Shown here in pieces: positions 4,186 to 38,096 of a stretch of DNA of 64,000 nt. Below the pieces are notes generated by a model, which saw only the letters and a list, made by a program, of their open reading frames with translations, was not told the DNA's origin and did no database searches. Within the stretch, counting starts at the first letter, position 1, and each line of letters starts with the position of its first letter. The DNA comes from Promethearchaeota archaeon (GTDB lineage Archaea > Asgardarchaeota > Lokiarchaeia > Sigyniarchaeales > SOKP01). The position numbers and the translations under genes were made by a program. Where the stretch lies: the NCBI GenBank assembly GCA_019894975.1, contig JAGXNO010000003.1:80922-144921 (forward strand). The letters are read 5' to 3'.

Positions 4186-7100
4186 TTATATTATAAGTGC
4201 CTTTATAGAAGCCTCAATTTGCTCAAAATCGTAATGCTTAATTGAGATTGCCCCCACAGGACAGCTTACCGCGCAAGTTCCACATCCTTTACAGAGACTT
4301 GAATTGACAGAAGACTTTTTTATAGGAAGACTTACCTCTTCAAATTCTTTAAGGCTATCTATTATTTCTATTGCATTGTAAGCACATGTCTCCTCGCAAG
4401 TCCCACACCCAATACACATATCTTGATTTACTTCAGCAATTAATCCTGACGATGTAATCTCTCCCGCACTTAAAAATCTACTTGCTCTTCCCGCAGCACC
4501 ATTTGCTTGCGATATTGAATCCTGTATATTTTTTGGCCACTGAGCACATCCACATAAGAATATTCCCTCAGTAGCAAAATCTAATGGTCTTAATTTTACA
4601 TGTGCTTCTAGAAAAAAACCATTTTTATCTAAAGGAACCTTGAGCATTTTTGCTAACCCATCTAAATTGTCAGCGGGAACCATAGGAGTCGATAGAACTA
4701 ATAAATCTGTGTTAAATTTGATATCATCTTGTAAATTAGTATCAAAAACTTTAATTTCAAACTTACTTGTTCCTTCATCTATCTCTTTAATCACCGGTGG
4801 ACTCTCTAAATCATATCTCAAAAAAATAGCATCTTTTCTTCGCTCACGGTAATATCTTTCAAATTCTTTTTTTGCCATTTGAAGATCTCGATAGAGAACG
4901 ATTAATTTGAGGTCCTGCTTTAGCTCTTTTAGGATGTTAATATTTTTTATAGCACTTTCGCAACAAATATTTGAGCAATATGTTATTCCGCTCTCCTGCC
5001 TAGCATTAACGCATAATAACGTTGTAATATGATTCAGATTATCAAGCCATGAATTATCCTCATCTTTAAATTTCTGTTCGAGTTGCAGTTGTGTAATTAC
5101 ATTATGGTTCGTATACTTATAGTCAAAAAATTCATTAGGTGTTAATTCTTGGCCGCCAGTAGCAACAATAATAGTACCAATTTTTAATTCATGAACATTT
5201 TTATCTGAATCGAGCAATGCAACATCATAATTACCAATATATCCCGTAATATCTTTAAATTCAGAATTTAAAAAGATTTGAATGTTTTTATTATTCTTAA
5301 CTTTTTCTATGGTTTCGTTTAATAAGATTGAAGCATCTTCTTGAGTGGGAAATAACATATTTAGGTGCCTTAGATTTCCACCTAGGTTTTTCTCCTTTTC
5401 TATAAGATAAGTATTAAATCCTTGATTAGCAATGTTCAAAGCAGCCGTCATTCCAGATATCCCTCCACCAATTACCATTGTAGTTTGAGTGATTTTCAAT
5501 TTCTTTTCTTCTTGTGGTCTTAACAACCTTGATTTAGCAATACCCATTCTTATTAAATCAATTGCCTTTTCAGTAGCAAGCTCTTTTTCTGTCATATGTA
5601 CCCATGAACATTGATCACGGATATTTACCATATCAAATAAGTATTTATTTAATCCCGCTTCTTGACAGGTTTCTTGGAATAATGACTCGTGTGTTCTTGG
5701 TGTACATGATGCTACAATAAATCTATTTAAATCAAATTCACTTATTACTTCCTTTATTCGCTCTTGAGAATCTGAGCTACAAGAATATAGATTGTCTTCA
5801 CAGAAGGCTACATTAGGTAACGTTTTTATTTGTTCAATAACTTGAGGGATATCAACATATTTCCCTATATTAATTCCACAATGACAGATTAATACTCCAA
5901 TTCTTGGATCATCAGTATCTTTTACTATTTTTTCGGGTATTCCAATAATTTTCTCTTTTGTTTCAGTAAATTTAAAGGAATTAAGCAATGTAGCTATTTG
6001 TGAGGCAACTCCACTGGCATCAGCAACAGTTTCTGGTATATCCATTGGACCTTGACAAAAACCAGCCAAAAAAATTCCTTCTTTGGAAGACAGTGATTTA
6101 TTGAAGTATGATCTTTCCTTAAAGAAATTATAATCATCTAATTCGATATCTAAAACTTTAGAAAATTCTTTGGTCCCAGCCGAAGGAACTAGAGGTGAAG
6201 CTAGTACGACAAGATTTGCCTTAAAATCTTTAAATTCACCTGTTTTTAGATCCTCATAGTGAATGATTAAATCATTAGATTCTGGATCTTCTATTATTCT
6301 ACTAACCTTTGTCTGGAAATATTTTATACCATATTCTTCTTGAGCTCTCTGAGTAAACTCATAAAAATTTTTTCCATAAGCTCTAATATCATGTCTAAAT
6401 ACAAAACATTTTGAGTTTTCAGAGTGTTCTCGTGTTATAATCGCTTCTTTTGCAGTATACATGCAACATACACTGGAACAATAGGGGATTCCCTCACGTA
6501 AGTCTCTAGATCCCGCACATTGAATAAATGCGATTATTTCTGGTTCTTCCTCATCGCTAGGTCGTAAAATATGACCTCCAAATGGCCCAGAGGCAGACAG
6601 CATTCGTTCGTATTCCAAGGCATTTACCACATTTTTATACTTATAACCCCATCGTGAGCTTAATTCTTCCCCAAGTACATCATATCCCGTAGCAACAACA
6701 ATAGCTCCAACGTTTAATTTGATTTCTTGAGGTTTTTGTTCATAATCTATTGCTTCTACTTTACAAACCTTTTCACAAACTCCGCATACTCCCTTAGTTA
6801 GTTTTAAACATAGCTCAGAGTCAATTAAGTACACAGGAGGTACTGCTTGAGGAAATGGAATGTACACAGATTTTCTTTTACCAAGATTCATATCAAAGAT
6901 ATTAGGTGATTCAATCTTTGGACATTTGGTAGCACAATCACCACACCCTTTACATTTAGTCTCGTCAATATAACGAGGTTTCTTAAGGACTGTAACCACA
7001 AAATTCCCAGGCTTACCAGATACTTTTTGAACTTCATGATAGGTCATTAATTCAATATTAGGATTTCTAAATACCTCTACCATTTTAGGAGCTAAAATAC

Positions 7101-7266
7101 ATAGACTGCAATCATTTGTAGGAAAGGTTTTATCAAGTTGAGCCATCCTTCCTCCGATTGAAGGTGTTTTTTCTACTAAATAAACGTTAAATCCTAATTC
7201 AGATAAATCTAAAGATGTTTGTATCCCTGCAATCCCACCACCAATAACTAACACTGATCCTTCCAT
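4186..7266 (-). CDS. hdrA: Large (~1000 aa) HdrA-family protein with duplicated FAD-domain architecture
   Basis: Two GGGxxG FAD motifs, TFPTNDCSLC, YCSSVCC, internal GVLICHCGINI/VASCTPRTHE/IRDQCSW domain, C-terminal 2x[4Fe-4S]. Confidence 0.92.
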   Translation of the reverse strand: MEGSVLVIGGGIAGIQTSLDLSELGFNVYLVEKTPSIGGRMAQLDKTFPTNDCSLCILAPKMVEVFRNPNIELMTYHEVQKVSGKPGNFVVTVLKKPRYIDETKCKGCGDCATKCPKIESPNIFDMNLGKRKSVYIPFPQAVPPVYLIDSELCLKLTKGVCGVCEKVCKVEAIDYEQKPQEIKLNVGAIVVATGYDVLGEELSSRWGYKYKNVVNALEYERMLSASGPFGGHILRPSDEEEPEIIAFIQCAGSRDLREGIPYCSSVCCMYTAKEAIITREHSENSKCFVFRHDIRAYGKNFYEFTQRAQEEYGIKYFQTKVSRIIEDPESNDLIIHYEDLKTGEFKDFKANLVVLASPLVPSAGTKEFSKVLDIELDDYNFFKERSYFNKSLSSKEGIFLAGFCQGPMDIPETVADASGVASQIATLLNSFKFTETKEKIIGIPEKIVKDTDDPRIGVLICHCGINIGKYVDIPQVIEQIKTLPNVAFCEDNLYSCSSDSQERIKEVISEFDLNRFIVASCTPRTHESLFQETCQEAGLNKYLFDMVNIRDQCSWVHMTEKELATEKAIDLIRMGIAKSRLLRPQEEKKLKITQTTMVIGGGISGMTAALNIANQGFNTYLIEKEKNLGGNLRHLNMLFPTQEDASILLNETIEKVKNNKNIQIFLNSEFKDITGYIGNYDVALLDSDKNVHELKIGTIIVATGGQELTPNEFFDYKYTNHNVITQLQLEQKFKDEDNSWLDNLNHITTLLCVNARQESGITYCSNICCESAIKNINILKELKQDLKLIVLYRDLQMAKKEFERYYRERRKDAIFLRYDLESPPVIKEIDEGTSKFEIKVFDTNLQDDIKFNTDLLVLSTPMVPADNLDGLAKMLKVPLDKNGFFLEAHVKLRPLDFATEGIFLCGCAQWPKNIQDSISQANGAAGRASRFLSAGEITSSGLIAEVNQDMCIGCGTCEETCAYNAIEIIDSLKEFEEVSLPIKKSSVNSSLCKGCGTCAVSCPVGAISIKHYDFEQIEASIKALII

Positions 7267-7782: not shown

Positions 7783-8214
7783 TTATTTTAGTTTTAAAGG
7801 TCCTTGTTCTTTTATTTGATTTGTAAATTCTGTAATTACCTCTGAAAATCTCTTCCCTTCAGAGGCACTAACCCATTCAAGTCTAAACCTTTTTTTAAGA
7901 TTAAATATTTTTAAAACATCCTGAAAACGTTCAAATCTATCTCGTGCAAACTCGTTACCTTTTAAGTAGTGACAATCTCCAATATGACACCCAGTTACAA
8001 TAACTCCATCAATGCCATCTTTAAATGCTTCTAAAATGAAGGCAGGATCTACTCTCCCAGAGCACATTACCCGTACTATCCTAATTGTAGCAGGGTATTG
8101 AAATCGTGAGACTCCCGCCAAATCTGCTCCCGCATAACTGCACCAATTGCAACAAAAACATAAAATTTTTGGGTGAAATTCCTTTTGACTTACTTTTTTT
8201 TTTGACTTAGACAT
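7783..8214 (-). CDS. mvhD: MvhD/FlpD [2Fe-2S] subunit, all-cysteine form
   Basis: CFCCNWCSYAGADLAG, RVMCSGRVD, GCHIGDCHY, WVSASEG. Confidence 0.95.
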   Translation of the reverse strand: MSKSKKKVSQKEFHPKILCFCCNWCSYAGADLAGVSRFQYPATIRIVRVMCSGRVDPAFILEAFKDGIDGVIVTGCHIGDCHYLKGNEFARDRFERFQDVLKIFNLKKRFRLEWVSASEGKRFSEVITEFTNQIKEQGPLKLK

Positions 8215-8238: not shown

Positions 8239-11200
8239 TTAGGTTAATAGTGCTGAAATCATTGCATTAATTTGCTCAAAACCAAAATGTTTGATTACTA
8301 TTGTGGAATTAGGACATTGAGCCCCACAAGTACCACAACCTTTACAGAGTGCAGGATTAATATGAGATTTCTTTGTAGCCATTGTAAAATCTTCAAACAC
8401 TCGTTCTTTCTCTATTAGTTCAATCGCGTTGAATTGGCAGACATCTTGACAATTTCCACAACCAATACAATTTTCTTCTATTACAGTCGCTACAAGCCCT
8501 GATGTTACAATTTTTTCAGCACTTAATATTTTTACTGCTTGAGCAGCAGCTCCATTGGATTGTGCTATTGACTCTCGAAGATCTTTAGGTGAATGAGCAC
8601 ATCCACATAGGTATATTCCATCGGTTGCGAAATCTATTGGTCTCAACTTAACGTGAGCTTCTAAAAAGAATTTATCCTCGTTTAACGGAACTTTTAACAT
8701 TTTCGCTAATTCTTCGTTTTCTTTGATTGGTGCTTCTAATCCTGTACTTAAAACGATTAGATCTGGATTTATTATAAGTTCTCCTAAATCAGGATTATTT
8801 ACTCTTAAATTTAATTGTTTGTTTTTTAAATTTAATTCTGGGGGATTGGTTTTATCAAATCTGATAAAAATAATGTTATTATCTCGCGCTTGGTTATAAT
8901 ATTTTTCTTTAAAGCCATAGGTTCTAATATCGCGATATAAGACCACTATTTCTATATTAGGATTAATTTCTTTTGCTTTTAACGCATTTTTTATGGCTTC
9001 TGAACAACAGATTCTACTACAATATGAGTGTTCTTCATTTCTGGACCCAACACATTGAATCATAACTATAGATTTTAATCCTTTTATCTTATCTGTAGTA
9101 AAAAGATCTTTTTCAAAGTTAGTTTGAGTTATAATTCTTTTATCTTGCCCAAATTTATATTCTTTTGGTTGATATTCTTTTGCTCCAGTAGCTACAATAA
9201 TTATGCCATGATCAAGATCAATGCTTTTCTTAATACTCCCATGGCTAATGTTTGTGGAAAAATTTCCAATATATCCTGAGATTGAATTAATTCTGGCTTC
9301 TTTAAATACATGGATAAGTTGATTACTTTCTACATTTTTAATCAAATTCCTAAGATAATCTTGAATATCATCATTTTCAAGTGTTTTATAAAGATTATTT
9401 GCAATCCCCCCTAAAGAATCTTCTTTTTCAATTAAAAATATCTCAAAACCTTGAGAGGCAAGGTTTAATGCTGCAGTGATTCCAGATACACCCCCACCTA
9501 TAATTAATCCCTTATCTATCACAGCTATTTCTTGTTCTTGTAATGGTATTAATTGACTAGCCTTTGCTACTGACATCCTTAGTAAGTCTTTCGATTTTGC
9601 TGTTGCTTTTTCTGGTTCATGCATATGAACCCATGAGCATTGATCACGGATATTAACCATTTCAAAAAGATATTTATTCAAACCAACCTCTCTTATAGTT
9701 GCTTGAAATAAAGATTCATGAGTTCTTGGGGTACATGAGGCAACTATTACTCTATTAAGTTGGTTCTTTTCTATTTTTTCTTTAATATTAGTTTGAGTAT
9801 CTGCTGAACATGTATACAAATTATGCTCTGCATAAACGACATCGGGCAGTGTCTTAACATATTCTACAACACTAGGAACATCAACTACACCCCCGATGTT
9901 TATCCCACAGTGACATATAAATACACCTATTCGGGGTGGAAGACTACTTACGTCTAATTCATTGGGAAGTTCTTTCTTTGAGATTAATTTATTTCTTGCT
10001 TCTGATAATAGAACATTGACACGTCCTGCAGCAGCACTAGCTTCAATAACAGTTTCTGGAATATCTTTAGGTGCTGCAAATGCACCACATACATAAATTC
10101 CCGGTTTAGAGGTCTCTACGGGAGAAAAAGTTTCAGTTTTACAAAATCCATAATCATTTAATTCAAAATTTAATACTTGTGCTAATTCTTTTGCTTTTTG
10201 ATTTGGTTGCATTCCAACAGAAAGAACAACTAAGTTAAAAATTTCTTCCACAATTTTTCCATTTTCATTTTCATAATAGACTCTTAAATCTTTAGAGTTA
10301 GGGTTTTCTTTTATGTAAGAAATTCTACGTCTGATGTATCTTACTCCATATTCATCTCTCGCTCTCTCAATATACTTATCAAAGTCTTTACCGTACGCTC
10401 TGATATCCATCGTAAAAATGGTTGGTTTTATAATTTCCATATGTTCTTTCGCGATTACAGCTTCTTTTGTAGTGTACATACAGCATACTGAAGAACAGTA
10501 TTCAATACCTTTACTTCTATCCCTTGAACCAATACAATGTAAAAATGCTATTTTTTTAGGAATAGTTCCGTCAGAAGGTCGAATTATTAAACCGGAATGC
10601 GGTCCACTTGCACTAAGAATACGTTCAAATTCAATACTGGTAATCACATTAAGATATTTACCATAACCATATTGTGTCAGAGGAGTGGGATCATATTCAT
10701 CAAATCCAGTTGCTACTACTACAGCACCCACATTAAGAGATATCTCTTTATCTTGAATTTCATAGTCTATAGCTTTTGCTTTACATATCCCTTTGCACAT
10801 TCCACAGCCAATGCATTTTTCTTTATTTATTGAAAACACTAATGGAACCGCCTGTGGAAATTTTACAGATATTGCAGCTTTATTAGAAAGCTTTTCATTA
10901 AAAAAATCAATAGCTTCAATAGGGCATTCCTGAGCGCATAAACCACATCCAGTACATTTGCTTTGATCCAAACGAAGCGTCCCTTGAGTTAATTCAACAT
11001 TAAAATTACCAGGTTCACCATCAATTTTTTCGATTGAAGTGTTAATTAAAATATCGATATTTTCATGTCGACCAGTTTCTACTAATTTCGGGGCCAGAAT
11101 ACATATTGCACAGTCATTAGTTGGAAATGTTTTATCCAATTGAGACATAACCCCCCCAATACTGGTAGTGGATTCTGCGAGGTAAACTTTATATCCAGAA

Positions 11201-11274
11201 TCTGCTAGATCTATAGAGGTTTGAATACCTGCAATTCCACCACCAATAACTAAAACAGCTCCAACTTTTTCCAT
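8239..11274 (-). CDS. hdrA: Large (~1000 aa) HdrA-family protein
   Basis: Same architecture as 4186..7266: TFPTNDCAIC, YCSSVCC, GVFICHCGINI, VASCTPRTHE, YCSRICC, C-terminal ferredoxin. Confidence 0.92.
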   Translation of the reverse strand: MEKVGAVLVIGGGIAGIQTSIDLADSGYKVYLAESTTSIGGVMSQLDKTFPTNDCAICILAPKLVETGRHENIDILINTSIEKIDGEPGNFNVELTQGTLRLDQSKCTGCGLCAQECPIEAIDFFNEKLSNKAAISVKFPQAVPLVFSINKEKCIGCGMCKGICKAKAIDYEIQDKEISLNVGAVVVATGFDEYDPTPLTQYGYGKYLNVITSIEFERILSASGPHSGLIIRPSDGTIPKKIAFLHCIGSRDRSKGIEYCSSVCCMYTTKEAVIAKEHMEIIKPTIFTMDIRAYGKDFDKYIERARDEYGVRYIRRRISYIKENPNSKDLRVYYENENGKIVEEIFNLVVLSVGMQPNQKAKELAQVLNFELNDYGFCKTETFSPVETSKPGIYVCGAFAAPKDIPETVIEASAAAGRVNVLLSEARNKLISKKELPNELDVSSLPPRIGVFICHCGINIGGVVDVPSVVEYVKTLPDVVYAEHNLYTCSADTQTNIKEKIEKNQLNRVIVASCTPRTHESLFQATIREVGLNKYLFEMVNIRDQCSWVHMHEPEKATAKSKDLLRMSVAKASQLIPLQEQEIAVIDKGLIIGGGVSGITAALNLASQGFEIFLIEKEDSLGGIANNLYKTLENDDIQDYLRNLIKNVESNQLIHVFKEARINSISGYIGNFSTNISHGSIKKSIDLDHGIIIVATGAKEYQPKEYKFGQDKRIITQTNFEKDLFTTDKIKGLKSIVMIQCVGSRNEEHSYCSRICCSEAIKNALKAKEINPNIEIVVLYRDIRTYGFKEKYYNQARDNNIIFIRFDKTNPPELNLKNKQLNLRVNNPDLGELIINPDLIVLSTGLEAPIKENEELAKMLKVPLNEDKFFLEAHVKLRPIDFATDGIYLCGCAHSPKDLRESIAQSNGAAAQAVKILSAEKIVTSGLVATVIEENCIGCGNCQDVCQFNAIELIEKERVFEDFTMATKKSHINPALCKGCGTCGAQCPNSTIVIKHFGFEQINAMISALLT

Positions 11275-12551
11275 TATTTTTCTCCTTTAGGTTCATTTGA
11301 GTTTACTACTTCTATCATGTCTACTAAAAACTCAGAAAAATCTATAATATCAATTGAAGAAAAATCTTCATAATCTTTTTTTAGACATCTTAAATGCATT
11401 CGGCATTTTGGACAGGAAGTAATCATTTTTGTTCCTACTGCTTTAGCTTCCAAAAGACGCTTATATCGTAGAGCTTTAGATTTTTCATTACAATTCATCC
11501 AGGAATTCACCCCACAACAATAAGAATTTTCTTTATTATGTTCCATTTCTTTGAAATCATATCCAATGGTTTTCAAATGCTTAAAAATTTCTCGGACATT
11601 CTCAATTACCTTATTCTCCTTTGGTAAAAACCGACTTAATCTACAAGGATCGTGATAAGTGAAAGGAATAACATCATTAGATTCATTAGGATTTTTAAAT
11701 TGAACTTCTCCCTGCTTCCACTTATCAAAAATATATTCAATTATATGTTTAACTTCAAATTTATTATTAAATTCTTCAAAAATATTTGGGTAATCAATTT
11801 TAAAGGTTCTATAACATTCAGCACATGCGGTTATAATTGTTTTGATACCTGCGTCTTCAAAATTACTCAAATTTTTTTTTCCTAATTCGATAAATGCTTC
11901 GAACTTTGCCTGGCCCCAATATAGATCATGACCACAACATGTTTCATTTTTAAGAACGACTACGGGATCTCTTTCTAATTGACAAATAATCTTTAAAGTG
12001 CTTTCCGCTATAGAAGTTGAACCTTCAAATTCATAATTAAATAAAGGTAAACATCCCACATAATATAAAATTTCTCCTTTATTTGAAACGTTACAACCTT
12101 TTGGAATCCAATCTAAAGGTCTTTCAATATTAATATTATCTTGAACCATTAGTTCTGACATTAGAGGATAAATACCTTTGTGAGCAATTGAACGATCAGG
12201 ATTCTGAATATCATTTAATCGCATTTTATACCTGGCAATTCTAACAATATCAGCAAAATTAATGTCTTTAGGACAATGTTGTAGGCAACTATTACACATT
12301 AAACAATCCCATAATACCTGGCTATTAATTATCTCATCTTCAAAGCCTTCTAATATCATCTGAATAATTCTACTTGGCGTAAATTTTTGAACTTTACTAA
12401 TTTGACATACACCTGAGCAACGAGCGCATTGGTAACACTTTTTTAGTAAATTAACTAAATCAGGTTCATAAATTTTTCCTATATATAAATTAGAATCAGT
12501 TTTTCCTATTTTTTCTTTTTTTAATTTTTCCAATTCTGTTATACGATTCAC
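11274..12551 (-). CDS. HdrD/GlpC-like Fe-S oxidoreductase, paralog of 1127..2407
   Basis: CYQCARCSGVC, CLMCNSCLQHCP, two complete CCG domains. TAATG overlap with the downstream hdrA. Confidence 0.9.
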   Translation of the reverse strand: MNRITELEKLKKEKIGKTDSNLYIGKIYEPDLVNLLKKCYQCARCSGVCQISKVQKFTPSRIIQMILEGFEDEIINSQVLWDCLMCNSCLQHCPKDINFADIVRIARYKMRLNDIQNPDRSIAHKGIYPLMSELMVQDNINIERPLDWIPKGCNVSNKGEILYYVGCLPLFNYEFEGSTSIAESTLKIICQLERDPVVVLKNETCCGHDLYWGQAKFEAFIELGKKNLSNFEDAGIKTIITACAECYRTFKIDYPNIFEEFNNKFEVKHIIEYIFDKWKQGEVQFKNPNESNDVIPFTYHDPCRLSRFLPKENKVIENVREIFKHLKTIGYDFKEMEHNKENSYCCGVNSWMNCNEKSKALRYKRLLEAKAVGTKMITSCPKCRMHLRCLKKDYEDFSSIDIIDFSEFLVDMIEVVNSNEPKGEK

Positions 12552-12555
12552 TACC

Positions 12556-13668
12556 TTATTTTAGGTTTTTCATAAATTCATGTTTTCTTTCCATTTTTGA
12601 TTCAGAAAACTTTACGATTAGATTTTTTATACTTCTTCTTTTACTTTCGTCGAGTTTTAAACTTTTTATAATGTTTTTTTCCAACACCTTATTAAATATC
12701 TGTTTTCCTTTTTCAGTACGGGGCAATACAGTAGTAAATTTATCTGGGGAACCAAGTCCACCAAACGAAATATCTGAATAAACATTAGTAAAATCAGTGC
12801 AGGAATGACAAGCAGGACGAATATAATTAACTAGTTTATTAAAAGGAATATGGATTATTTTTTCTTTTTCTTTTTCATCCTTTAGTTTTAGAATTAAATC
12901 TTCCTTAATATTTATCTTGATTATATCTTCGAATTTTATCTTAAATTCTTCTTCAAATTTCCCAATTTGAGATTTTTCAAATAAAAAATTATGATAACAG
13001 AATAAGCCAAAAGTAATCTCAACATGTTCTGAAGGGGTAACCCCAAGATTTTGCATACATCTAATCGTGTAGATTTGACATGGTGTTCCCACAATTGCTA
13101 GTTTTTTAAATTTATAATGATTCAGTTGAGGAATTGATTGTGTATAAGTATTAAACCTTTGAATTTCATCTAAATGAGGTGATATATTCAAATTTGTACC
13201 TGAAGCTTTGATTAAGTCGTCTTTAGTCTCTGCAAACATAGCTTCTCGGGAAAAAGGACCCTCAGCTTTAGAGACTATTGCCCCATCAATAATTTTATTT
13301 TCCAATAAAAAATTTAAAAGTGTATTAACCACGCCCCCATCTGTACCATATTTTAGAAATTCTTCATCTGTGGTTTGACATGAATAGATTTCTTCAGCAA
13401 ATCCATAAGGCATTGAAGTGAAATCAGTGAATTGATAAGTTTTATTCAGATCATCATCTAAAATATGTGTTTGAGGGCATAATATATAACATATACCACA
13501 ATCGAGACATGCCTCCTTATTTATATATTCAGGGGGAGAATTAGGTTTTTTAAAGCCAATAACTTTTTCAAAAGCCGCTGAGCAGAATGATGTACATCCT
13601 CCACATTCTTGGCAGATCCCTTTTTCATGAACTTCCTTAATTAAATCTTGGAATGTTTTTACAGGCAT
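12556..13668 (-). CDS. FrhB/FdhB-family F420-binding beta subunit
   Basis: N-terminal 2x[4Fe-4S], GTDGGVV, IVGTPCQ, GLFC, CHSCTDF..SDISFGGLGSP. Start moved to ATG 13668 (MPVK) to avoid overlap with the upstream gene. Confidence 0.88.
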   Translation of the reverse strand: MPVKTFQDLIKEVHEKGICQECGGCTSFCSAAFEKVIGFKKPNSPPEYINKEACLDCGICYILCPQTHILDDDLNKTYQFTDFTSMPYGFAEEIYSCQTTDEEFLKYGTDGGVVNTLLNFLLENKIIDGAIVSKAEGPFSREAMFAETKDDLIKASGTNLNISPHLDEIQRFNTYTQSIPQLNHYKFKKLAIVGTPCQIYTIRCMQNLGVTPSEHVEITFGLFCYHNFLFEKSQIGKFEEEFKIKFEDIIKINIKEDLILKLKDEKEKEKIIHIPFNKLVNYIRPACHSCTDFTNVYSDISFGGLGSPDKFTTVLPRTEKGKQIFNKVLEKNIIKSLKLDESKRRSIKNLIVKFSESKMERKHEFMKNLK

Positions 13669-13684
13669 ATTTTTAATATTTACA

Positions 13685-15193
13685 TTACTCTTTCTGTAAA
13701 ATAATTGGTTTACAATTTTTTCTCTTAATACCAGCAATCCTTTCGAGTAAGGGTTGTCCTGGTTTGACATCTTTCAAACTTTTTGATTCAATTAATCCTG
13801 CTTTAACTGCTTCTTTATAGATTTTTTCACCTTTTTTATTTCTTGTAATGACTGAAGACCACCCGCTGGGAGATCCAATTGATCCAACAGAAATATCAGC
13901 ATAATCAGCAGTTAGGTCTTCACAATAATGACAATTGTGACGAGCGTAGGATTTAACATCGTTCAAGGGAACGTTTAGATCTTCACCTGAATCTAGATAA
14001 ATAATGAATTTACCCCCACTTATGTCCATTTTTGTTACTTTTTGAAAATCTGTTTCAAATTGTTCTTTAATTAAGCTTAGGACGCCTTCATAAGGAAATG
14101 ATTCCATACAAAAGAGCCCTATTCTATATTTTATATTTTTGAAAAAAGGTAACCCGCTTGGAAATAAGCTACCCTTTTCCAAGGCGTTCATCATACAAGG
14201 AACACCTACAACTGCGATGTTATCAAACTTTTTTGTACCATCTATAATACTTAAAGTTGAGGCATTAGCGTATTTAGTACCACTTGTTTTATATAAATCC
14301 TTGACATCTTCTATTATTACTGGTTCTGGCTTCCATAGTTCTTCTGAATGTTTTACTGCTACAATTGCATCAACTAATTTATTCTCGAGTAAATACTCAA
14401 GTAGAGATGTAACGATACCCCCATCTTGTCGTACTTTTTTAATATCATCCTTGGTGGTGCTGGCTGAATATGCGTTAACATAGCCATTAATATTTTCTGA
14501 AAACTTCAAGGATTTCTCAATTTTGCTTATACTTTTACCCGCTTGCTCAATTGAAAATGATCTTGGGCAAACAGAATAACATAAGCCACATTTCATGCAT
14601 GTCGCATCGTCGATCTCCAAAGTGTCTGCTGTCACTGTAATGGCATTTACTGGACAAATTGATGAGCACCAACCACATTGACAACATACTTCAGAATCAA
14701 ACACAATGGAAACAGGTTCAAAAAACCGTTCGATAAAACCATCAGGTAGATCTTTAACCTGGTATCGGTAGAAATATTCTTTTTCTTCGACTTCTTTTTC
14801 TTCTCCCTTTATTTTCTTAATAACAGTTTTAGTTTTTATTTCAATATGTTCTTCTATATATCCTTGTTCTTTCAGATAAATTACATCGCGAATTACATTT
14901 TCAGGAGGAAAATCTTTTATAATTTTAGCAATTTCTTCTAAAAATAACGGTTCTTTACCTTTTAAAGATTCTAAAACTAACTTACGCTCTGTTTCAGCAT
15001 CGATCATAGCATCTAGGAATTCATAAAATTCTTCTTCAGAATATTTACCAGTTTCTAAAATTTCACCTTTAGCTTCGAAAAAAGCCCTAATCTGAAAATT
15101 CTCGACTGCTTTATAGGTGGCATCCATTAAATTTCTTGGAGAGATTCCATTGAAATTTAGATTTTTTGAGATTTGAACCATATTTCCAACCAT
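13685..15193 (-). CDS. FrhB-family F420-binding subunit with an N-terminal helical/winged-helix-like extension
   Basis: CCQCGWCSSIC, CMKCGLCYSVCP, QDGGIVT, VGVPC, GLFCME, CHYCED..ADISVGSIGSP. About 160 aa of extra N-terminus. Confidence 0.88.
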   Translation of the reverse strand: MVGNMVQISKNLNFNGISPRNLMDATYKAVENFQIRAFFEAKGEILETGKYSEEEFYEFLDAMIDAETERKLVLESLKGKEPLFLEEIAKIIKDFPPENVIRDVIYLKEQGYIEEHIEIKTKTVIKKIKGEEKEVEEKEYFYRYQVKDLPDGFIERFFEPVSIVFDSEVCCQCGWCSSICPVNAITVTADTLEIDDATCMKCGLCYSVCPRSFSIEQAGKSISKIEKSLKFSENINGYVNAYSASTTKDDIKKVRQDGGIVTSLLEYLLENKLVDAIVAVKHSEELWKPEPVIIEDVKDLYKTSGTKYANASTLSIIDGTKKFDNIAVVGVPCMMNALEKGSLFPSGLPFFKNIKYRIGLFCMESFPYEGVLSLIKEQFETDFQKVTKMDISGGKFIIYLDSGEDLNVPLNDVKSYARHNCHYCEDLTADYADISVGSIGSPSGWSSVITRNKKGEKIYKEAVKAGLIESKSLKDVKPGQPLLERIAGIKRKNCKPIILQKE

Positions 15194-15252: not shown

Positions 15253-15312
15253 CCCTCGCAAGGTAAGTCATCTTATAACTAACATTTTTTTATAAGATTC
15301 ATTCTGCAGGGG
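15253..15312 (-). promoter_or_regulatory. Eukaryote-type SECIS element
   Basis: Minus strand reads CCCCUGCAGA-AUGA-AUCUUAUAA-AAAAAUGUUAG-UUAUAAGAU-GA-CUUACCUUGCGAGGG. It has an AUGA/GA core, a perfect 9-bp upper helix, an A-rich apical loop and an imperfect lower helix, and lies directly at the end of two UGA-containing genes. Confidence 0.85.
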
Positions 15313-15772
15313 TAATTATAACTTGTTTTGTTTCTTCAGTTTCCACTTCTGAATCATGATCTATTAAATTAAGCGGACTTGGTCCGAAGGTTTTTACCTT
15401 TTCTATAGTATCTTCCACACTTTTTACAAATTTTTCTGCTTCTGCTCCACTTAACCAATACATATTAACCCTTTGATTACCGAAACCCCGAGATTCTAAA
15501 ATCCTGTTTGCTAATTCAACATGTCTTTGAGCCGTGAAATTGCCGTTCTTAAACTGGCATTCATTAGGGCGTCAACCTACAATCATGACACCATCCGCTC
15601 CAGATTTCATACTGTAAAGTATGTGTTTCAAATCTACTCTCCCTGTACAACGCACTTTAATAATTTTTATAGATGAAGAATATTTCAGTCGAGAAACTCC
15701 TGCTAGATCAGCAGCACTGTAACCTCATTTTAAACATGCAAATGCAACAATCTTATAATTATAATTATTCAT
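15299..15772 (-). CDS. vhuD: Selenoprotein VhuD/MvhD [2Fe-2S] subunit, 157 aa, Sec16 and Sec67
   Basis: Manual translation MNNYNYKIVAFACLK-U-GYSAADLAG..VRCTGRVD..GADGVMIVG-U-RPNEC..WLSGAEA. In-frame TGA at 15725-15727 and 15572-15574 align to Cys in the paralog at 7783..8214. Missed by the ORF track. Confidence 0.92.
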
Positions 15773-15775
15773 TGT

Positions 15776-17722
15776 TTAATCCCCTCCTAACAGTCCATCA
15801 ATCTCAGCAAATAATTGATGATCTCGATAATATCTTATATCAATGGCCTGAGTAGGACAGCAAGTTGCACAAATACCGCATCCATCACAATTTATCTCAT
15901 CAATATATGCTCCAATTTCTTCATCAATCTTAATAGCGTTTTTAGGGCATTCCTTTTCACATCGTCTGCAGGAAATGCAAAATTCGCTATCAACTTCAGC
16001 AGTAATTAATTCAATATCAATTTCTCCTGGAGATGTTAGTTCAGCAACTTTACTAGCAGCAGCTCTAGATTGTGAAACGGAATAAGCAATATTTTTTGGC
16101 CCTTGAGCAAATCCAGCTATAAAAATGCCTTTTGACTTAGTCTCTTGCGGCATTAATCCGAAATGTGATTCTGTAAGAAAGCCGTATTTGTTAGTATCAA
16201 GCTTTAAAACGTCTACGATTTGTTGAGTGCCTTTTGAAGGAAGTGCTGCCGTGGATAAGACAACTAAATCAGCATCAATTTTGACAATCTTATCAGTTAA
16301 TGATGAATATAATCGAACTTTCACGTTTTTAGTTTCAGGATCTTCTGAGATTTCACCAACTTTTCCCCGAATCATCCTAATACCTTTATCTTTCGCACGT
16401 TCATAATACTCCTCAAAACCTTTTTCTGGAGTCCTTATATCGATATAACAAATTGTAATCCTCGCATCAGGAAATTCTTCTAGAAGCAATCTCCCATTCT
16501 TTAGAGCAAGCATACAACAGACACCACTACAATAGGTTCTTTCTGTTTCTCTACTGCCCACACATTGAATGAACACAATTTCCTTAGGTTCCTTATTATC
16601 TGAAATTCGATGCACATGACCTTCAAGTGGTCCATTTGGAGCTAACATCCGTTCTAATTGAACCTGGGTTATCACATTTTCAATCTCTCCATAACCATAT
16701 TCACCAAAAGGTTCATGTATATCCCAACCAGTTGCAATTATGACTGTACCCACTTCAACATTAACTTCCACTGGCTCCTGACTAAAATCAATTGCATCCA
16801 ATTCGCACGCATCAACGCATGAAAAGCATTCTACACAAGCTTCTCTATCAATATCATATAAAAATGGGACTGCTTGACCGAATGGAATGTCTATTGCTCT
16901 TCGTGCTCCCAGATTTTCATCAAAATAATTTTGCGTGTAAACAGGACAAACTTCAGCACAGGCCCCACACCCATTACATTCATCTGTCGTATATCGTGGT
17001 TTCTTTACAATTGTTGCGATATAATTACCAACATATCCTTCGATCTTTTTTACTTCACAATAGCTCATTAATTCGATGTTTTCGTTTCTATTAACTTCTA
17101 ACATTTTAGGCCCGCAAATTCATATTGCACAGTCATCTGTAGGAAAAGTTCTATCCAATTGAGCCATCCTTCCTCCTATTGTAGTCTTTTGTTCTACAAG
17201 ATAAACTTTGATACCTTGATTGGCGAGATCTAAAGCCGCATTCATACCACCAATCCCTCCTCCAACTACTAAAGTAGCTTTAGTAACAGGGACTGTTTTA
17301 ATAGGGACGGGCTCTAATCGTTTAACTCGTTCAACACCGCCTTTTACCAATTGTTTAGCTTTTTGTGTAGCTTCTTCTTTGCTATCTGTACACCAAGAAC
17401 AATGTTCTCGAACGTTTACCATTTGAAAATAATAAGGGTTTAAATCTGTTTTAGCAATTGTACCCCTATAAATTACTTCGTGCGTTCGGGGAGTTCAAGC
17501 TGATGCTACGATTCTGTTTAGATTTTTTTCTTTGATATCTTCAATTATTTCATTTTGGGCATTGTCGGTTCAAAGAAATGCATTCTTTTTTGATATTATA
17601 ATTTCTTCAGGAAATTCGTTTTTAACATACTCTACTAGCTCATCACAATTAACTTTACTTTTTATATTTATACCTCACTGACATGCATAGTATCCAATCC
17701 GATGATTTGTATTTTTATTCAT
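15776..17722 (-). CDS. hdrA: Selenoprotein HdrA, 648 aa, four Sec (U16, U51, U76, U201)
   Basis: A single frame from ATG 17722 joins ORFs 17120..17422 and 15776..17104. In-frame TGA at 17675-77 (ACQ-U-GINI), 17570-72 (FL-U-TD), 17495-97 (ASA-U-TPRTHE) and 17120-22 (DDCAI-U-ICGPK); each is Cys in the HdrA paralogs in this window. Canonical HdrA length. Confidence 0.92.
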
Positions 17723-18177
17723 TTCTTTTTACACATCCACCTCGTGTTATTTATACAAGATTGTATAATAGAATATAATTTTCTGAATTTACTAATTCTT
17801 TTCTTAGGTTTTATTCTTTTTTAAACTTTTTTAATCTTTCTGTTTATCGATATAAACAGTTTTTAGATTTTGAATAATTGTAATATTTCATTTCAAATCA
17901 ATCTGATACTTTTTGAAAGTTTTATGATGGAGAATAAAAAGAGATTAGGGTTTCATGATCGTTTTCATACATTTTTATTCAGATTAGTAATTTTAATTCA
18001 TTCTAATATTCTGATTCTTACTATTCAGCTGTCAAAATTGTTATTCATAATAAAAGATTAGAGAGAAATTAGTTTTAAGCAAATTCTTTTTAGGAAAAGA
18101 GAAATCAATAGCGATGTTTATATTCTATGCGAAATAATTGCATTTAAGTAATTAGAGATTTAGAATATAGTGAAAAC

Positions 18178-36746: not shown

Positions 36747-38096
36747 TTATTTTCTCTTTCTTTTTGAATGCCAGTCATAAAGGAGTCTAAATCCTCTAAC
36801 CGCCCGTTCAACTTCATTTTCAAATACAGGAATTCTTAATTCAGAGGCAGTTTTTACTACTCTTTTTGCACCTTCATGTTCAGCTTGGATTAATATGGTA
36901 ATTATTGGTTTTTCGGGATTTGATTTTTTTATATTACTAAAAATATTGAAATCAAATTCAATTTCGGTGAAAAACTCTAAAGCTAAAATTAAACCACCTA
37001 CAGCATCATCATTTAATAAAGTTTTAGAAGAAGTGTTATAAATTTCGCAAATCTTTGTACCAACAAATCTATCAGGGGGCCAATAATCGACAGGATTCCC
37101 TAAATCACAAGTAGAACCACCTACCTTCTCGAGTATTATATTTTTGTGATCGTTAGTTAATACCGCTAAAGATAGTTCCTGCTTCCGCATTTCTTTTATA
37201 ATAAGATATATTGCTCCTGAGCTTGGACCTATAATCCCTAAATCTGGATTTTTAGGTTCTGGACACCACAGAAAAATCTTGGCAAACTCAAATAATTCAA
37301 TATAGTTAACCACTGCAATACCCCCTGCCTTTATTAATTCTTCTTCCTTTTCATCTTCTTTTCCAACGTAGAAAAATAACACGGGTTTAATCGGGGATAA
37401 ATTTTGTACAGATTTAACTATTCTCTCTGTAATTTCTCTAAGAAAAAGTAAGATAACTCTGGTGGTCTTATCTTCTTTGAAGTAATTTAAGACATCTGCA
37501 TCATCAACATCAAATCCATACCCCAAATGAATGACTTTAGAAATAGGTAAATCTTGAGGAGGATTCCACCACCCCATTGCCCCTGCTAACCCTCCAGATT
37601 GCGCTATGAAACTGATACCTTCTTTTACCTTCCTATGTTTCTGCATAAGATACTGCCTTACAGGGATTATTGATGTTGTAAAGTTATTTATAAAATTAAT
37701 GATTCCAAGCATAGAAGGACCCATGTATGAAACATCATACTTCCTGCTAATTCTTGTTAAGTTTTCTATTAGTTCTGGATCACTTGTGTCTATTCTTAAT
37801 TCAGATTCAATCGCAATATTTTTAATACCAATCTTTGCTAACTTCTCAAATATATGGGATATATCTTTACCTAATACAATAACCGCTAACTCTGGGATCT
37901 CCGGTAATTCTTCTAATGAATGATAAGATTTCACACCTAAAATTTCATCTGCATTTGGGTTTAAGATGAATACTTTTCCTCGATAAACTATCTCTAAAAG
38001 ATTTTTTAGAATAGTATAACTGAAAGTATAGGCCTTTCTTGAAGCACCAACAATTAGAATGCTTTTAGGATTAAAAAAAGGTTCAAGATTTTTCAA
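36747..38096 (-). CDS. CoA-binding acyl-CoA synthetase (ADP-forming) alpha-like protein, apparently lacking the phospho-His loop
   Basis: FFNPKSILIVGAS, GPSMLG, FIAQSGG, NPVD. No SHTG segment after KPV. Confidence 0.8.
   Translation of the reverse strand: MKNLEPFFNPKSILIVGASRKAYTFSYTILKNLLEIVYRGKVFILNPNADEILGVKSYHSLEELPEIPELAVIVLGKDISHIFEKLAKIGIKNIAIESELRIDTSDPELIENLTRISRKYDVSYMGPSMLGIINFINNFTTSIIPVRQYLMQKHRKVKEGISFIAQSGGLAGAMGWWNPPQDLPISKVIHLGYGFDVDDADVLNYFKEDKTTRVILLFLREITERIVKSVQNLSPIKPVLFFYVGKEDEKEEELIKAGGIAVVNYIELFEFAKIFLWCPEPKNPDLGIIGPSSGAIYLIIKEMRKQELSLAVLTNDHKNIILEKVGGSTCDLGNPVDYWPPDRFVGTKICEIYNTSSKTLLNDDAVGGLILALEFFTEIEFDFNIFSNIKKSNPEKPIITILIQAEHEGAKRVVKTASELRIPVFENEVERAVRGFRLLYDWHSKRKRK

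What the first reader, a model, noticed from the sequence alone, without database searches (positions are those of the whole stretch)
15776..17722. Hidden HdrA with four selenocysteines
Seen: four in-frame TGAs in an otherwise intact 648-codon frame, with no TAA, TAG or frameshift. Each lands on a Cys of the paralogs in this window: CQU vs CHC, FLU vs LYTC, ASAU vs VASC, CAIU vs CAIC. Established: Methanococcales HdrA has one Sec in the TFPTDDCxxU motif, and Lokiarchaeota decode Sec (Mariotti et al. 2016). Inference: U16, U51 and U76 replace the Cys ligands of the N-terminal [4Fe-4S] cluster, giving a cluster that is largely selenolate-ligated. This would be unusual and could retune electron bifurcation. 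Automated pipelines would call this gene fragments.
Basis: partly seen in the sequence, partly recalled or inferred. Interest (0 to 1): 0.85.

Follow-up and report, generated by a model that had tools for sequence, protein, structure and literature searches.

The report
Known four-selenocysteine HdrA of Lokiarchaeota
This is a real, intact gene for the redox enzyme subunit HdrA in a Loki-type Asgard archaeon, whose four internal UGA "stops" almost certainly encode selenocysteine, but HdrA genes with up to four selenocysteines were already described for Lokiarchaeota in 2016.

Summary
Window 15776-17722 (minus strand) is one 648-codon HdrA frame broken only by four TGAs, at codons 16, 51, 76 and 201, each on an invariant Cys column. 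They are almost certainly selenocysteine.

- **Machinery:** the genome has tRNA-Sec, SepSecS, SelB, two Sec-containing SelD and a PSTK-like gene.
- **Conservation:** in 88 distinct relatives from Promethearchaeota (Lokiarchaeota) MAGs these sites carry only TGA, TGT or TGC. 54 sequences have all four TGAs.
- **Translation:** segments 17-647 are under purifying selection (pN/pS 0.10-0.26); the 14 codons before the first TGA are less clear (0.63).
- **Stop codon:** hdrA never ends in TGA.
- **SECIS:** hdrA lies 3 nt upstream of a two-Sec vhuD. One textbook lokiSECIS overlaps the vhuD stop, and 8 of its 9 stem pairs covary.

What the 2016 paper does not contain is the structural reading. By later Hdr structures, the Sec sites surround the mobile N-terminal "shuttle" [4Fe-4S] cluster HA3 and the DCxxC pair. 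At least three of the four HA3 ligands would then be selenolates. This is inference, not shown.

The same scan had already flagged sister cassettes elsewhere in this genome.

The parts
15776..17722 (-). hdrA coding sequence, 648 codons plus TAA stop (15776-15778). It has an N-terminal MvhD-like Fe-S domain, a FAD/thioredoxin-reductase domain, and inserted and C-terminal ferredoxin domains.
   Evidence: Translation. NCBIfam HdrA2 758 bits and HdrA 601 bits, both below the equivalog cut-offs. PDB 9sfi_A HdrA E=8e-196 over residues 7-646. All Fe-S Cys columns are conserved.
17675..17677 (-). UGA codon 16 (context ACQ-U-G), Sec candidate in the N-terminal Fe-S domain.
   Evidence: TGA in 99 and TGT/TGC in 4 of the related loci. 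It is Sec in all four Sec-HdrA paralogs of this genome.
17570..17572 (-). UGA codon 51 (context FL-U-T), Sec candidate in the N-terminal Fe-S domain.
   Evidence: TGA 70, TGT/TGC 33. It switches between Sec and Cys at least 6 times within the ortholog clade.
17495..17497 (-). UGA codon 76 (context ASA-U-TPRTHE), Sec candidate in the N-terminal Fe-S domain.
   Evidence: TGA 94, TGT/TGC 10.
17120..17122 (-). UGA codon 201 (context TFPTDDCAI-U), the canonical HdrA Sec position. It equals Sec197 of M. maripaludis HdrA.
   Evidence: It aligns to X197 of PDB 9sfi_A. It is TGA in 110 of 110 related loci.
15299..15772 (-). vhuD/mvhD (FlpD family) coding sequence, starting 3 nt after the hdrA stop. Sec candidates lie at codon 16 (15725-15727) and codon 67 (15572-15574). 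The probable stop is the UGA at 15299-15301, with a back-up TAA at 15290-15292.
   Evidence: Translation. Pfam FlpD 150.8 bits. U16 in 78/78 and U67 in 77/78 distinct orthologs, with Cys13/42/72 invariant.
15268..15302 (-). lokiSECIS: AUGA, 9-bp stem (AUCUUAUAA / UUAUAAGAU), 11-nt apical loop AAAAAUGUUAG, then GA. The UGA of the AUGA core is vhuD codon 158.
   Evidence: Sequence. The MFE fold contains the helix. In 72 orthologous elements 95.1% of cells are paired, 8 of 9 pairs show compensatory changes, and 0/500 shuffles reach this. The covariance model gives a single strong hit in the window, plus independent hits behind two other Sec-hdrA paralogs.
11274..15193 (-). Downstream co-oriented genes, given as context: FrhB-like with ferredoxin domain (13685-15193), FrhB-like (12556-13770), and an HdrD-like protein with ferredoxin and 2x CCG domains (11274-12551).
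   Evidence: Pfam.

Best explanation
This is the hdrA gene of an hdrA-vhuD selenoprotein cassette of a Lokiarchaeon (Promethearchaeota). The four internal UGAs of hdrA and the two of vhuD are decoded as selenocysteine. Decoding uses the archaeal/eukaryote-type Sec machinery of this genome and a single eukaryote-like SECIS (lokiSECIS). That SECIS overlaps the end of vhuD, 0.27 to 2.4 kb downstream of the recoded codons, presumably on one bicistronic mRNA.

The product is a full-length HdrA-type flavin/Fe-S subunit of an electron-bifurcating complex. Its likely partners are the VhuD, FrhB-like and HdrD-like proteins encoded downstream.

The following is inferred from methanogen Hdr structures. 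Sec51, Sec76 and either Sec16 or Cys14, together with Sec201 from the partner protomer, ligate the mobile N-terminal 'shuttle' cluster HA3, which takes the low-potential electron from FAD. The DCxxU pair and VhuD Sec16 lie on the [2Fe-2S]-to-FAD path.

Shown: gene integrity, conservation of UGA/Cys alternation, the machinery, and the SECIS with covariation. Inferred: actual Sec insertion, the bicistronic mRNA, cluster ligation and any redox tuning.
For: (1) One intact 648-codon frame with 4 TGAs.
(2) Sec machinery in the same genome: tRNA-Sec 62.6 bits, above cut-off, and called SeC(tca) by ARAGORN. SepSecS 482 bits. SelB 248 bits. Two SelD, each with one in-frame TGA. PSTK-like 125 bits.
(3) Among 88 distinct related HdrA from Promethearchaeota MAGs, the patterns at sites 16/51/76/201 are UUUU 54, UCUU 23, UCCU 7, CUUU 2, CCCU 1 and CUCU 1. 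The only codons seen are TGA, TGT and TGC. 16 other genomes of the same genus have a 4- or 5-TGA ortholog at 87-91% identity.
(4) pN/pS against 53 four-Sec orthologs is 0.26, 0.10, 0.13 and 0.13 for segments 17-50, 52-75, 77-200 and 202-647. The parts between the TGAs are therefore translated.
(5) The hdrA stop is TAA (73) or TAG (16) and never TGA, as Mariotti et al. noted.
(6) The SECIS has the published geometry, with 8 of 9 stem pairs covarying, and it is the only strong hit in the cassette.
(7) TGA is an ordinary stop for other genes in the window.
(8) Literature: Mariotti 2016 describes exactly this arrangement, and Huang 2024 extends it to 227 Asgard genomes.
(9) Structural mapping: U201 equals Sec197. 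Cys197 is a ligand of the partner's N-terminal cluster. HA3 is the shuttle cluster, and the Cys pair plus MvhD Cys16 are conserved extra cysteines.
Against: There is no protein-level or transcript-level evidence.

The first 14 codons show weaker constraint (pN/pS 0.63), as expected for an N-terminus but not decisive.

The SECIS hairpin alone is not thermodynamically exceptional (z = -1.22). Its support comes from covariation.

Rfam has no matching family.

NCBIfam HdrA models score below their equivalog cut-offs (758 vs 1100). Lokiarchaeota are not known methanogens, so the physiological substrate is unknown.

Which N-terminal cysteines ligate HA3 could not be read from coordinates. Recent cryo-EM papers place Cys/Sec197 in a Cys-Sec pair binding an unknown ligand rather than on the cluster.
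Confidence: 0.92

Rival explanations
1. The Sec residues are not Fe-S ligands but free, redox-active selenols, for example selenenylsulfide relays. This was the original 2016 reading ('multiple catalytic Cys residues'). For Sec197 it is also the 2026 cryo-EM reading. On this view the gene is still a four-Sec selenoprotein, but the 'selenolate-ligated cluster' idea is wrong or holds for fewer positions.
For: Mariotti 2016 stated that the Sec sites are not among the cluster-coordinating Cys (written before any structure). PMC13518236 sees a Cys-Sec197 feature between A3 and FAD and proposes a selenylsulfide relay. PMC13580544 calls Cys202/Cys205 and MvhD Cys16 'additional' conserved cysteines binding an unknown ligand. 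VhuD U16 aligns by motif with that MvhD Cys16 (my reading, not tested by alignment).
Against: The N-terminal domain binds a [4Fe-4S] cluster yet has only four invariant Cys/Sec (14, 16, 51, 76). Position 108 varies among the paralogs and is Asp in M. maripaludis. At least two Sec must therefore be ligands if the cluster is present. Chadwick 2022 states that Cys197 ligates that cluster in the crystal structure.
Confidence: 0.25
2. Decoding is only partial or conditional. Some UGAs, especially the three N-terminal ones that lie more than 2 kb from the SECIS, often terminate translation or are read as Cys. The cell would then make a mixture of products, or rely on Cys-only HdrA paralogs when selenium is scarce.
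For: The genome keeps four Cys-only full-length HdrA paralogs and less Sec-rich ones. Position 51 flips between Sec and Cys repeatedly in evolution, so the two residues are functionally interchangeable there. Serial UGA decoding by one distant SECIS is expected to be inefficient (general knowledge).
Against: Strong purifying selection acts on segments 17-200. The four-TGA state is retained in 54 distinct sequences. A gene that mostly terminated at codon 16 would not be maintained this way.
Confidence: 0.15
3. It is a pseudogene, a sequencing or assembly error, or the product of genome-wide reassignment of TGA to another amino acid.
For: Table-11 gene callers see only fragments.
Against: The same TGAs occur in dozens of independent assemblies. 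TAA and TAG are never seen at these sites. pN/pS is well below 1. TGA is used as a normal stop by other genes in the window and never occurs internally in them. A dedicated tRNA-Sec and SECIS are present.
Confidence: 0.01

Closest known systems
Multi-Sec HdrA of Lokiarchaeota (HdrA.1-4 of Mariotti et al. 2016, Mol Biol Evol 33:2441, PMC4989117; extended to Asgard archaea by Huang et al. 2024, ISME J, PMC11227280)
   Same: Up to four Sec per HdrA, always including the canonical DCxxU site, and every Sec on a conserved Cys column. hdrA lies immediately upstream of a two-Sec vhuD. A single lokiSECIS (AUGA, 9-bp stem, 11-nt A-rich loop, GA) lies only downstream of vhuD. The hdrA stop is never UGA. 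All of these were re-found here.
   Different: Nothing essential differs. This is another genome of the same lineage. Two points go beyond what I could read in those papers. First, some orthologs carry a fifth Sec, at column 302 or 615 inside ferredoxin CxxCxxCxxxC motifs. Second, the Sec sites map onto the HA3 cluster, which was unknown in 2016.
Sec-containing HdrA of Methanococcales (for example M. maripaludis HdrA, PDB 9sfi; PMC13518236)
   Same: Same domain architecture, E=8e-196 over the full length. Sec lies at the same DDCxxU position (Sec197 = U201 here), and the partner is a two-Sec VhuD.
   Different: The methanogen protein has one Sec, with Cys at the three N-terminal positions. Methanococcales use the classical archaeal SECIS. 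There the enzyme reduces CoM-S-S-CoB, whereas the substrate in Lokiarchaeota is unknown.
Eukaryotic SECIS / multi-Sec selenoprotein P
   Same: An AUGA...GA kink-turn core with an A-rich apical loop in the 3' region, and one element serving several UGAs.
   Different: Here one element serves six UGAs in two cistrons. The eukaryotic Rfam SECIS model gives no hit at an E-value of 10 or below in the cassette.

Membership tests
HdrA (heterodisulfide reductase subunit A type flavo-Fe-S protein) | Full-length similarity to structurally characterised HdrA | tested here: met
   PDB 9sfi_A E=8e-196 (query 7-646). 5odc_A 1.6e-189, 8rvu_a 2.4e-184 and 7bkb_A 1.3e-159.
HdrA (heterodisulfide reductase subunit A type flavo-Fe-S protein) | Score above the curated equivalog cut-off of NCBIfam HdrA/HdrA2 models, i.e. 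the same function as methanogen HdrA | tested here: not met
   HdrA2 758 bits vs cut-off 1100. HdrA 601 vs 1400. It is a family member, but CoB-CoM heterodisulfide reductase function is not established.
HdrA (heterodisulfide reductase subunit A type flavo-Fe-S protein) | [quoted passage not shown] | tested here: met
   All of these columns are Cys or Sec in all 8 full-length paralogs. Pfam finds Fer4 and Pyr_redox_2/FAD domains.
Selenoprotein (UGA decoded as Sec) | Sec machinery in the same genome: tRNA-Sec, PSTK, SepSecS, SelB/EFSec, SelD | tested here: met
   PSTK is matched only below its cut-off (125 vs 290 bits), over the full model length.
Selenoprotein (UGA decoded as Sec) | UGA aligns with Cys in homologs, and the UGA/Cys alternation is conserved | tested here: met
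   Only TGA, TGT or TGC occur at the four sites in about 100 loci.
Selenoprotein (UGA decoded as Sec) | Coding constraint on both sides of each UGA | tested here: met
   pN/pS 0.10-0.26 for segments 17-647, and 0.63 for the 14 codons before the first UGA.
Selenoprotein (UGA decoded as Sec) | Selenium actually incorporated in the protein | not testable with these tools
   This needs mass spectrometry or 75Se labelling.
lokiSECIS (Mariotti 2016) | AUGA 5' core, 9-bp stem, 11-nt apical loop beginning with a run of A, and a GA 3' core | tested here: met
   Window 15302-15268 (minus strand): AUGA / AUCUUAUAA / AAAAAUGUUAG / UUAUAAGAU / GA.
lokiSECIS (Mariotti 2016) | Located only downstream of vhuD and shared by the hdrA-vhuD pair | tested here: met
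   There is one pattern match and one strong model hit in the cassette. The element lies at the same place, about 450-480 nt after the hdrA stop, in the 71 orthologous loci aligned with this one.
lokiSECIS (Mariotti 2016) | Helix supported by compensatory changes | tested here: met
   95.1% paired, 8 of 9 pairs with changes on both sides, 0/500 shuffles, and slid controls at 41-58%.

The most novel reading that the evidence does not exclude
In this HdrA clade the mobile N-terminal 'shuttle' [4Fe-4S] cluster HA3, the acceptor of the low-potential bifurcated electron, is ligated by three or four selenolates: Sec51, Sec76, Sec201' and possibly Sec16. That would be a natural, almost fully Se-ligated iron-sulfur cluster. 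The two positions that are Sec in every Sec-HdrA of this genome are 16 and 201. One speculative reading is that they are the exchangeable fourth ligands as the arm swings between its two states. The six Sec of the HdrA-VhuD pair would then all sit on the gated electron path that recent cryo-EM work leaves unexplained. I found no paper making this link. The 2016 paper said the sites were not cluster ligands.
Probability: 0.4. Interest if true: 0.6.

Novelty: already known. Interest (0 to 1): 0.3.

Why it matters
As a genomic feature it matters mostly for annotation. Standard pipelines split this gene, its vhuD neighbour and their many orthologs into fragments, which hides a major redox enzyme of Asgard archaea.

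Biologically, six UGAs in two cistrons served by one eukaryote-like SECIS is a remarkable recoding system, but it was published in 2016 and 2024.

The remaining open point is chemical. If the Sec residues ligate the HA3 shuttle cluster, this enzyme would be a natural test case for how selenolate ligation tunes a low-potential Fe-S centre in flavin-based electron bifurcation. The natural Sec51/Cys51 variants would offer ready-made comparisons.

Tried and rejected
- **Rfam.** The gathering search on the whole window gave 0 hits. The permissive search on the cassette gave only chance-level matches and no SECIS family. Rfam has no usable lokiSECIS model.
- **Folding energy.** For the SECIS alone it is not significant (z = -1.22), so I used covariation instead.
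- **Reads and expression.** Raw-read verification and expression were therefore not done, and read laying was not used.
- **Ligand identity.** Literature searches for the individual N-terminal ligands of HA3 gave the general statement (N-domain Cys plus Cys197') but not residue numbers. The tools give no coordinates, so I did not spend structure-prediction jobs on it.
- **Other pattern matches.** Two further matches to the loose SECIS pattern, at 17924 and 53922 on the plus strand, have no complementary stem and were dismissed.
- **Weak model hit.** The weak R1 hit at 37517-37563 (16 bits) was not pursued.
- **Rejected readings.** Pseudogene, assembly error and TGA reassignment were considered and rejected.
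- **First tree script.** It failed on an over-strict gap filter and was repeated.

Full report
**Observation**

The stated interval holds, on the minus strand, one uninterrupted 648-codon frame from ATG (17722) to TAA (15776-15778). It has exactly four in-frame TGAs, at codons 16, 51, 76 and 201. The plus strand is full of stops. Under table 11 the gene appears as fragments of 442 and 100 aa, among others.

The protein is a full-length HdrA. NCBIfam HdrA2 scores 758 bits and HdrA 601 bits, both below the equivalog cut-offs. The best solved relative is M. maripaludis HdrA, PDB 9sfi_A, at E=8e-196 over residues 7-646. Pfam finds the FAD and ferredoxin domains.

**Are the TGAs selenocysteine?**

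*Machinery.* The window is contig C109 of a 3.9-Mb, 175-contig genome. That genome encodes:
- a tRNA-Sec (62.6 bits against a 47-bit cut-off; ARAGORN calls it tRNA-SeC, anticodon tca);
- SepSecS next to it (482 bits);
- SelB on the same contig;
- two SelD genes, each with one in-frame TGA;
- a PSTK-like gene, full length but below its cut-off.

*Paralogs.* The genome has eight full-length HdrA copies, four with TGAs (4, 3, 2 and 2) and four without. In their alignment every TGA lies on a column that is otherwise invariant Cys, and the pattern is nested. Positions 16 and 201 are Sec in all four Sec paralogs, position 51 in two, and position 76 only here.

*Orthologs.* A scan of one genome per species returned 80 loci, mostly titled Promethearchaeota (= Lokiarchaeota) MAGs, at 75-91% identity over residues 1-647. 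A whole-genome search of 40 relatives found a 4- or 5-TGA ortholog at 87-91% identity in 16 other genomes of the same genus.
- At the four sites the only codons seen are TGA, TGT and TGC. Position 201 is TGA in 110 of 110 loci.
- Among distinct sequences the patterns are UUUU 54, UCUU 23, UCCU 7, CUUU 2, CCCU 1 and CUCU 1.
- pN/pS against 53 four-Sec orthologs is 0.26, 0.10, 0.13 and 0.13 for the segments between and after the TGAs. It is 0.63 for the 14 codons before the first TGA.
- The hdrA stop is TAA (73) or TAG (16), never TGA.

*TGA elsewhere.* Other genes in the window use TGA as an ordinary stop, and no other long frame has an internal TGA.

Pseudogene, assembly error and code reassignment are therefore excluded as far as sequence can exclude them.

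**The recoding signal**

hdrA is followed after 3 nt by a FlpD-family gene, vhuD/mvhD (Pfam 150.8 bits). It has TGAs at codons 16 and 67. These are conserved in 78/78 and 77/78 distinct orthologs, beside invariant Cys13, Cys42 and Cys72.

At 15302-15268 the RNA reads AUGA, AUCUUAUAA, AAAAAUGUUAG, UUAUAAGAU, GA. This is exactly the lokiSECIS geometry: AUGA core, 9-bp stem, 11-nt A-rich loop, GA. The UGA of the core is vhuD codon 158, so it most likely also serves as the vhuD stop, with a back-up TAA two codons later.

The hairpin is too short and AU-rich to stand out energetically (z = -1.22). In an ungapped alignment of 72 orthologous elements, however, the helix is 95.1% paired. Eight of nine pairs show compensatory changes, and no shuffle of 500 reaches this. 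Slid controls give 41-58% pairing.

A covariance model built from that alignment finds one strong hit in the window. It also finds independent hits behind two other Sec-hdrA paralogs of this genome that were not in the model (50 and 43 bits). There is no second element in or beside hdrA. One SECIS thus apparently serves six UGAs lying 0.27-2.4 kb upstream in two cistrons.

**What is already known**

Mariotti et al. 2016 (PMC4989117) describe all of this:
- 'up to four Sec sites';
- HdrA and VhuD always in tandem;
- HdrA always ending in UAA or UAG;
- a SECIS core that can double as a stop codon.

Huang et al. 2024 (PMC11227280) catalogue 1439 Asgard selenoproteins, with HdrA in 58% of Sec-using genomes and hdrA-frhD sharing one SECIS. 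Earlier follow-ups of this scan on sister cassettes in this genome reached the same verdict.

**The structural inference**

In 2016 no HdrA structure existed, and the authors wrote that the Sec sites are not cluster ligands. Later work changes that.
- Chadwick et al. 2022, summarising the Wagner 2017 crystal structure, state that the N-terminal [4Fe-4S] cluster is bound by Cys of the N-terminal domain plus Cys197 of the partner HdrA.
- U201 here aligns with residue 197, which is Sec in the M. maripaludis structure.
- The N-terminal domain has only four invariant Cys/Sec: 14, 16, 51 and 76. Position 108 varies among the paralogs and is Asp in M. maripaludis.

If three of those four are ligands, at least two of Sec16, Sec51 and Sec76 ligate the cluster. 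Together with Sec201', the cluster would have at least three selenolate ligands.

[quoted passage not shown] They treat the DCxxC pair and MvhD Cys16 as conserved extra cysteines of unknown role on the [2Fe-2S]-to-FAD path. One paper proposes a Cys-Sec197 selenylsulfide relay.

By motif, VhuD Sec16 here looks equivalent to that MvhD Cys16, and HdrA Sec16 to the same position in the homologous N-terminal domain. This is my inference and was not tested. It suggests that Sec16 may be the non-ligand, or a ligand that exchanges with Sec201' as the arm moves. I could not check coordinates, so this stays a hypothesis. The rival reading, that the Sec are free redox-active selenols, keeps substantial weight.

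**Evolution and context**

A maximum-likelihood tree was built with the four sites masked (88 distinct sequences; quick search; SH-aLRT support only). It shows a supported clade of 77 orthologs (99) holding only four-Sec (54) and three-Sec (23, Cys at 51) forms. The basal branches are three-Sec, and position 51 changes state at least six times. Sec and Cys are evidently interchangeable there.

A few orthologs have a fifth Sec inside a classical ferredoxin motif, at column 302 (three loci) or column 615 (two loci). Column 615 matches the C-terminal site described in 2016. I could not tell whether column 302 is among the published five.

Downstream on the same strand lie two FrhB-like genes, an HdrD-like Fer4+CCG gene, a 1011-aa fused HdrA, a Cys-type MvhD and a 1026-aa fused HdrA. 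This points to a large Hdr-type electron-bifurcating module whose substrates are unknown in these non-methanogens.

**Verdict**

The kind is already published, so novelty is 'already known' and interest is low to moderate. The residual value is the post-2017 structural reading of where the selenium sits, which is inferred, testable, and apparently not yet in the literature I could search.

Noticed in passing
L044, L076, L092 (HdrA alignment column 302); L052 and L127 (column 615): Some orthologs of this HdrA carry a fifth in-frame TGA. It replaces a Cys inside a classical CxxCxxCxxxC ferredoxin motif: CVECFS-U-VDAC in the inserted ferredoxin domain, or CDG-U-GIC in the C-terminal one. The 2016 paper speaks of 'up to four' Sec. 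Column 615 matches its C-terminal site, while column 302 may be an additional position.
   Followed up: partly
window 15299-15301 (minus strand): The UGA inside the AUGA core of the SECIS is in frame as vhuD codon 158, in 55 of 78 distinct orthologs. It is probably the vhuD stop, too close to the SECIS to be recoded, with a TAA two codons later.
   Followed up: partly
window 8239-11274 and 4186-7266 (minus strand): These are two fused double-HdrA proteins of about 1010-1030 aa. The first half has the DCxxC pair but no N-terminal Fe-S domain. The second half has the N-terminal-type domain (CHCG, LYTC, ASC) but lacks the pair. This is the complementarity that Chadwick et al. 2022 interpret as a built-in heterodimer. 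Both are all-Cys.
   Followed up: no
G000:C108:10686-12773 (L006, L007): Two adjacent selD (selenophosphate synthetase) genes, each with one in-frame TGA. This is consistent with the duplicated Sec-SelD reported for Loki/Thorarchaeia.
   Followed up: no
L026 (G000:C103:8931-10865 and downstream): The three-TGA HdrA paralog of this genome gave no hit to the SECIS model R1 at an E-value of 1 or below, unlike the two-TGA paralogs. Its SECIS may be of a different form.
   Followed up: no
window 15253-15263 (minus strand), columns 54-64 of alignment A1: A small conserved hairpin (CCUU-GCR-AGGG type) lies directly 3' of the SECIS. It is 84% paired, with 13 compensatory cells at one pair, but its support is much weaker than for the SECIS stem. 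It may be part of a lower stem or a terminator-like element.
   Followed up: partly
window 7783-8214 (minus strand): A second MvhD/FlpD gene (175 bits) with Cys instead of Sec lies between the two fused HdrA genes.
   Followed up: no
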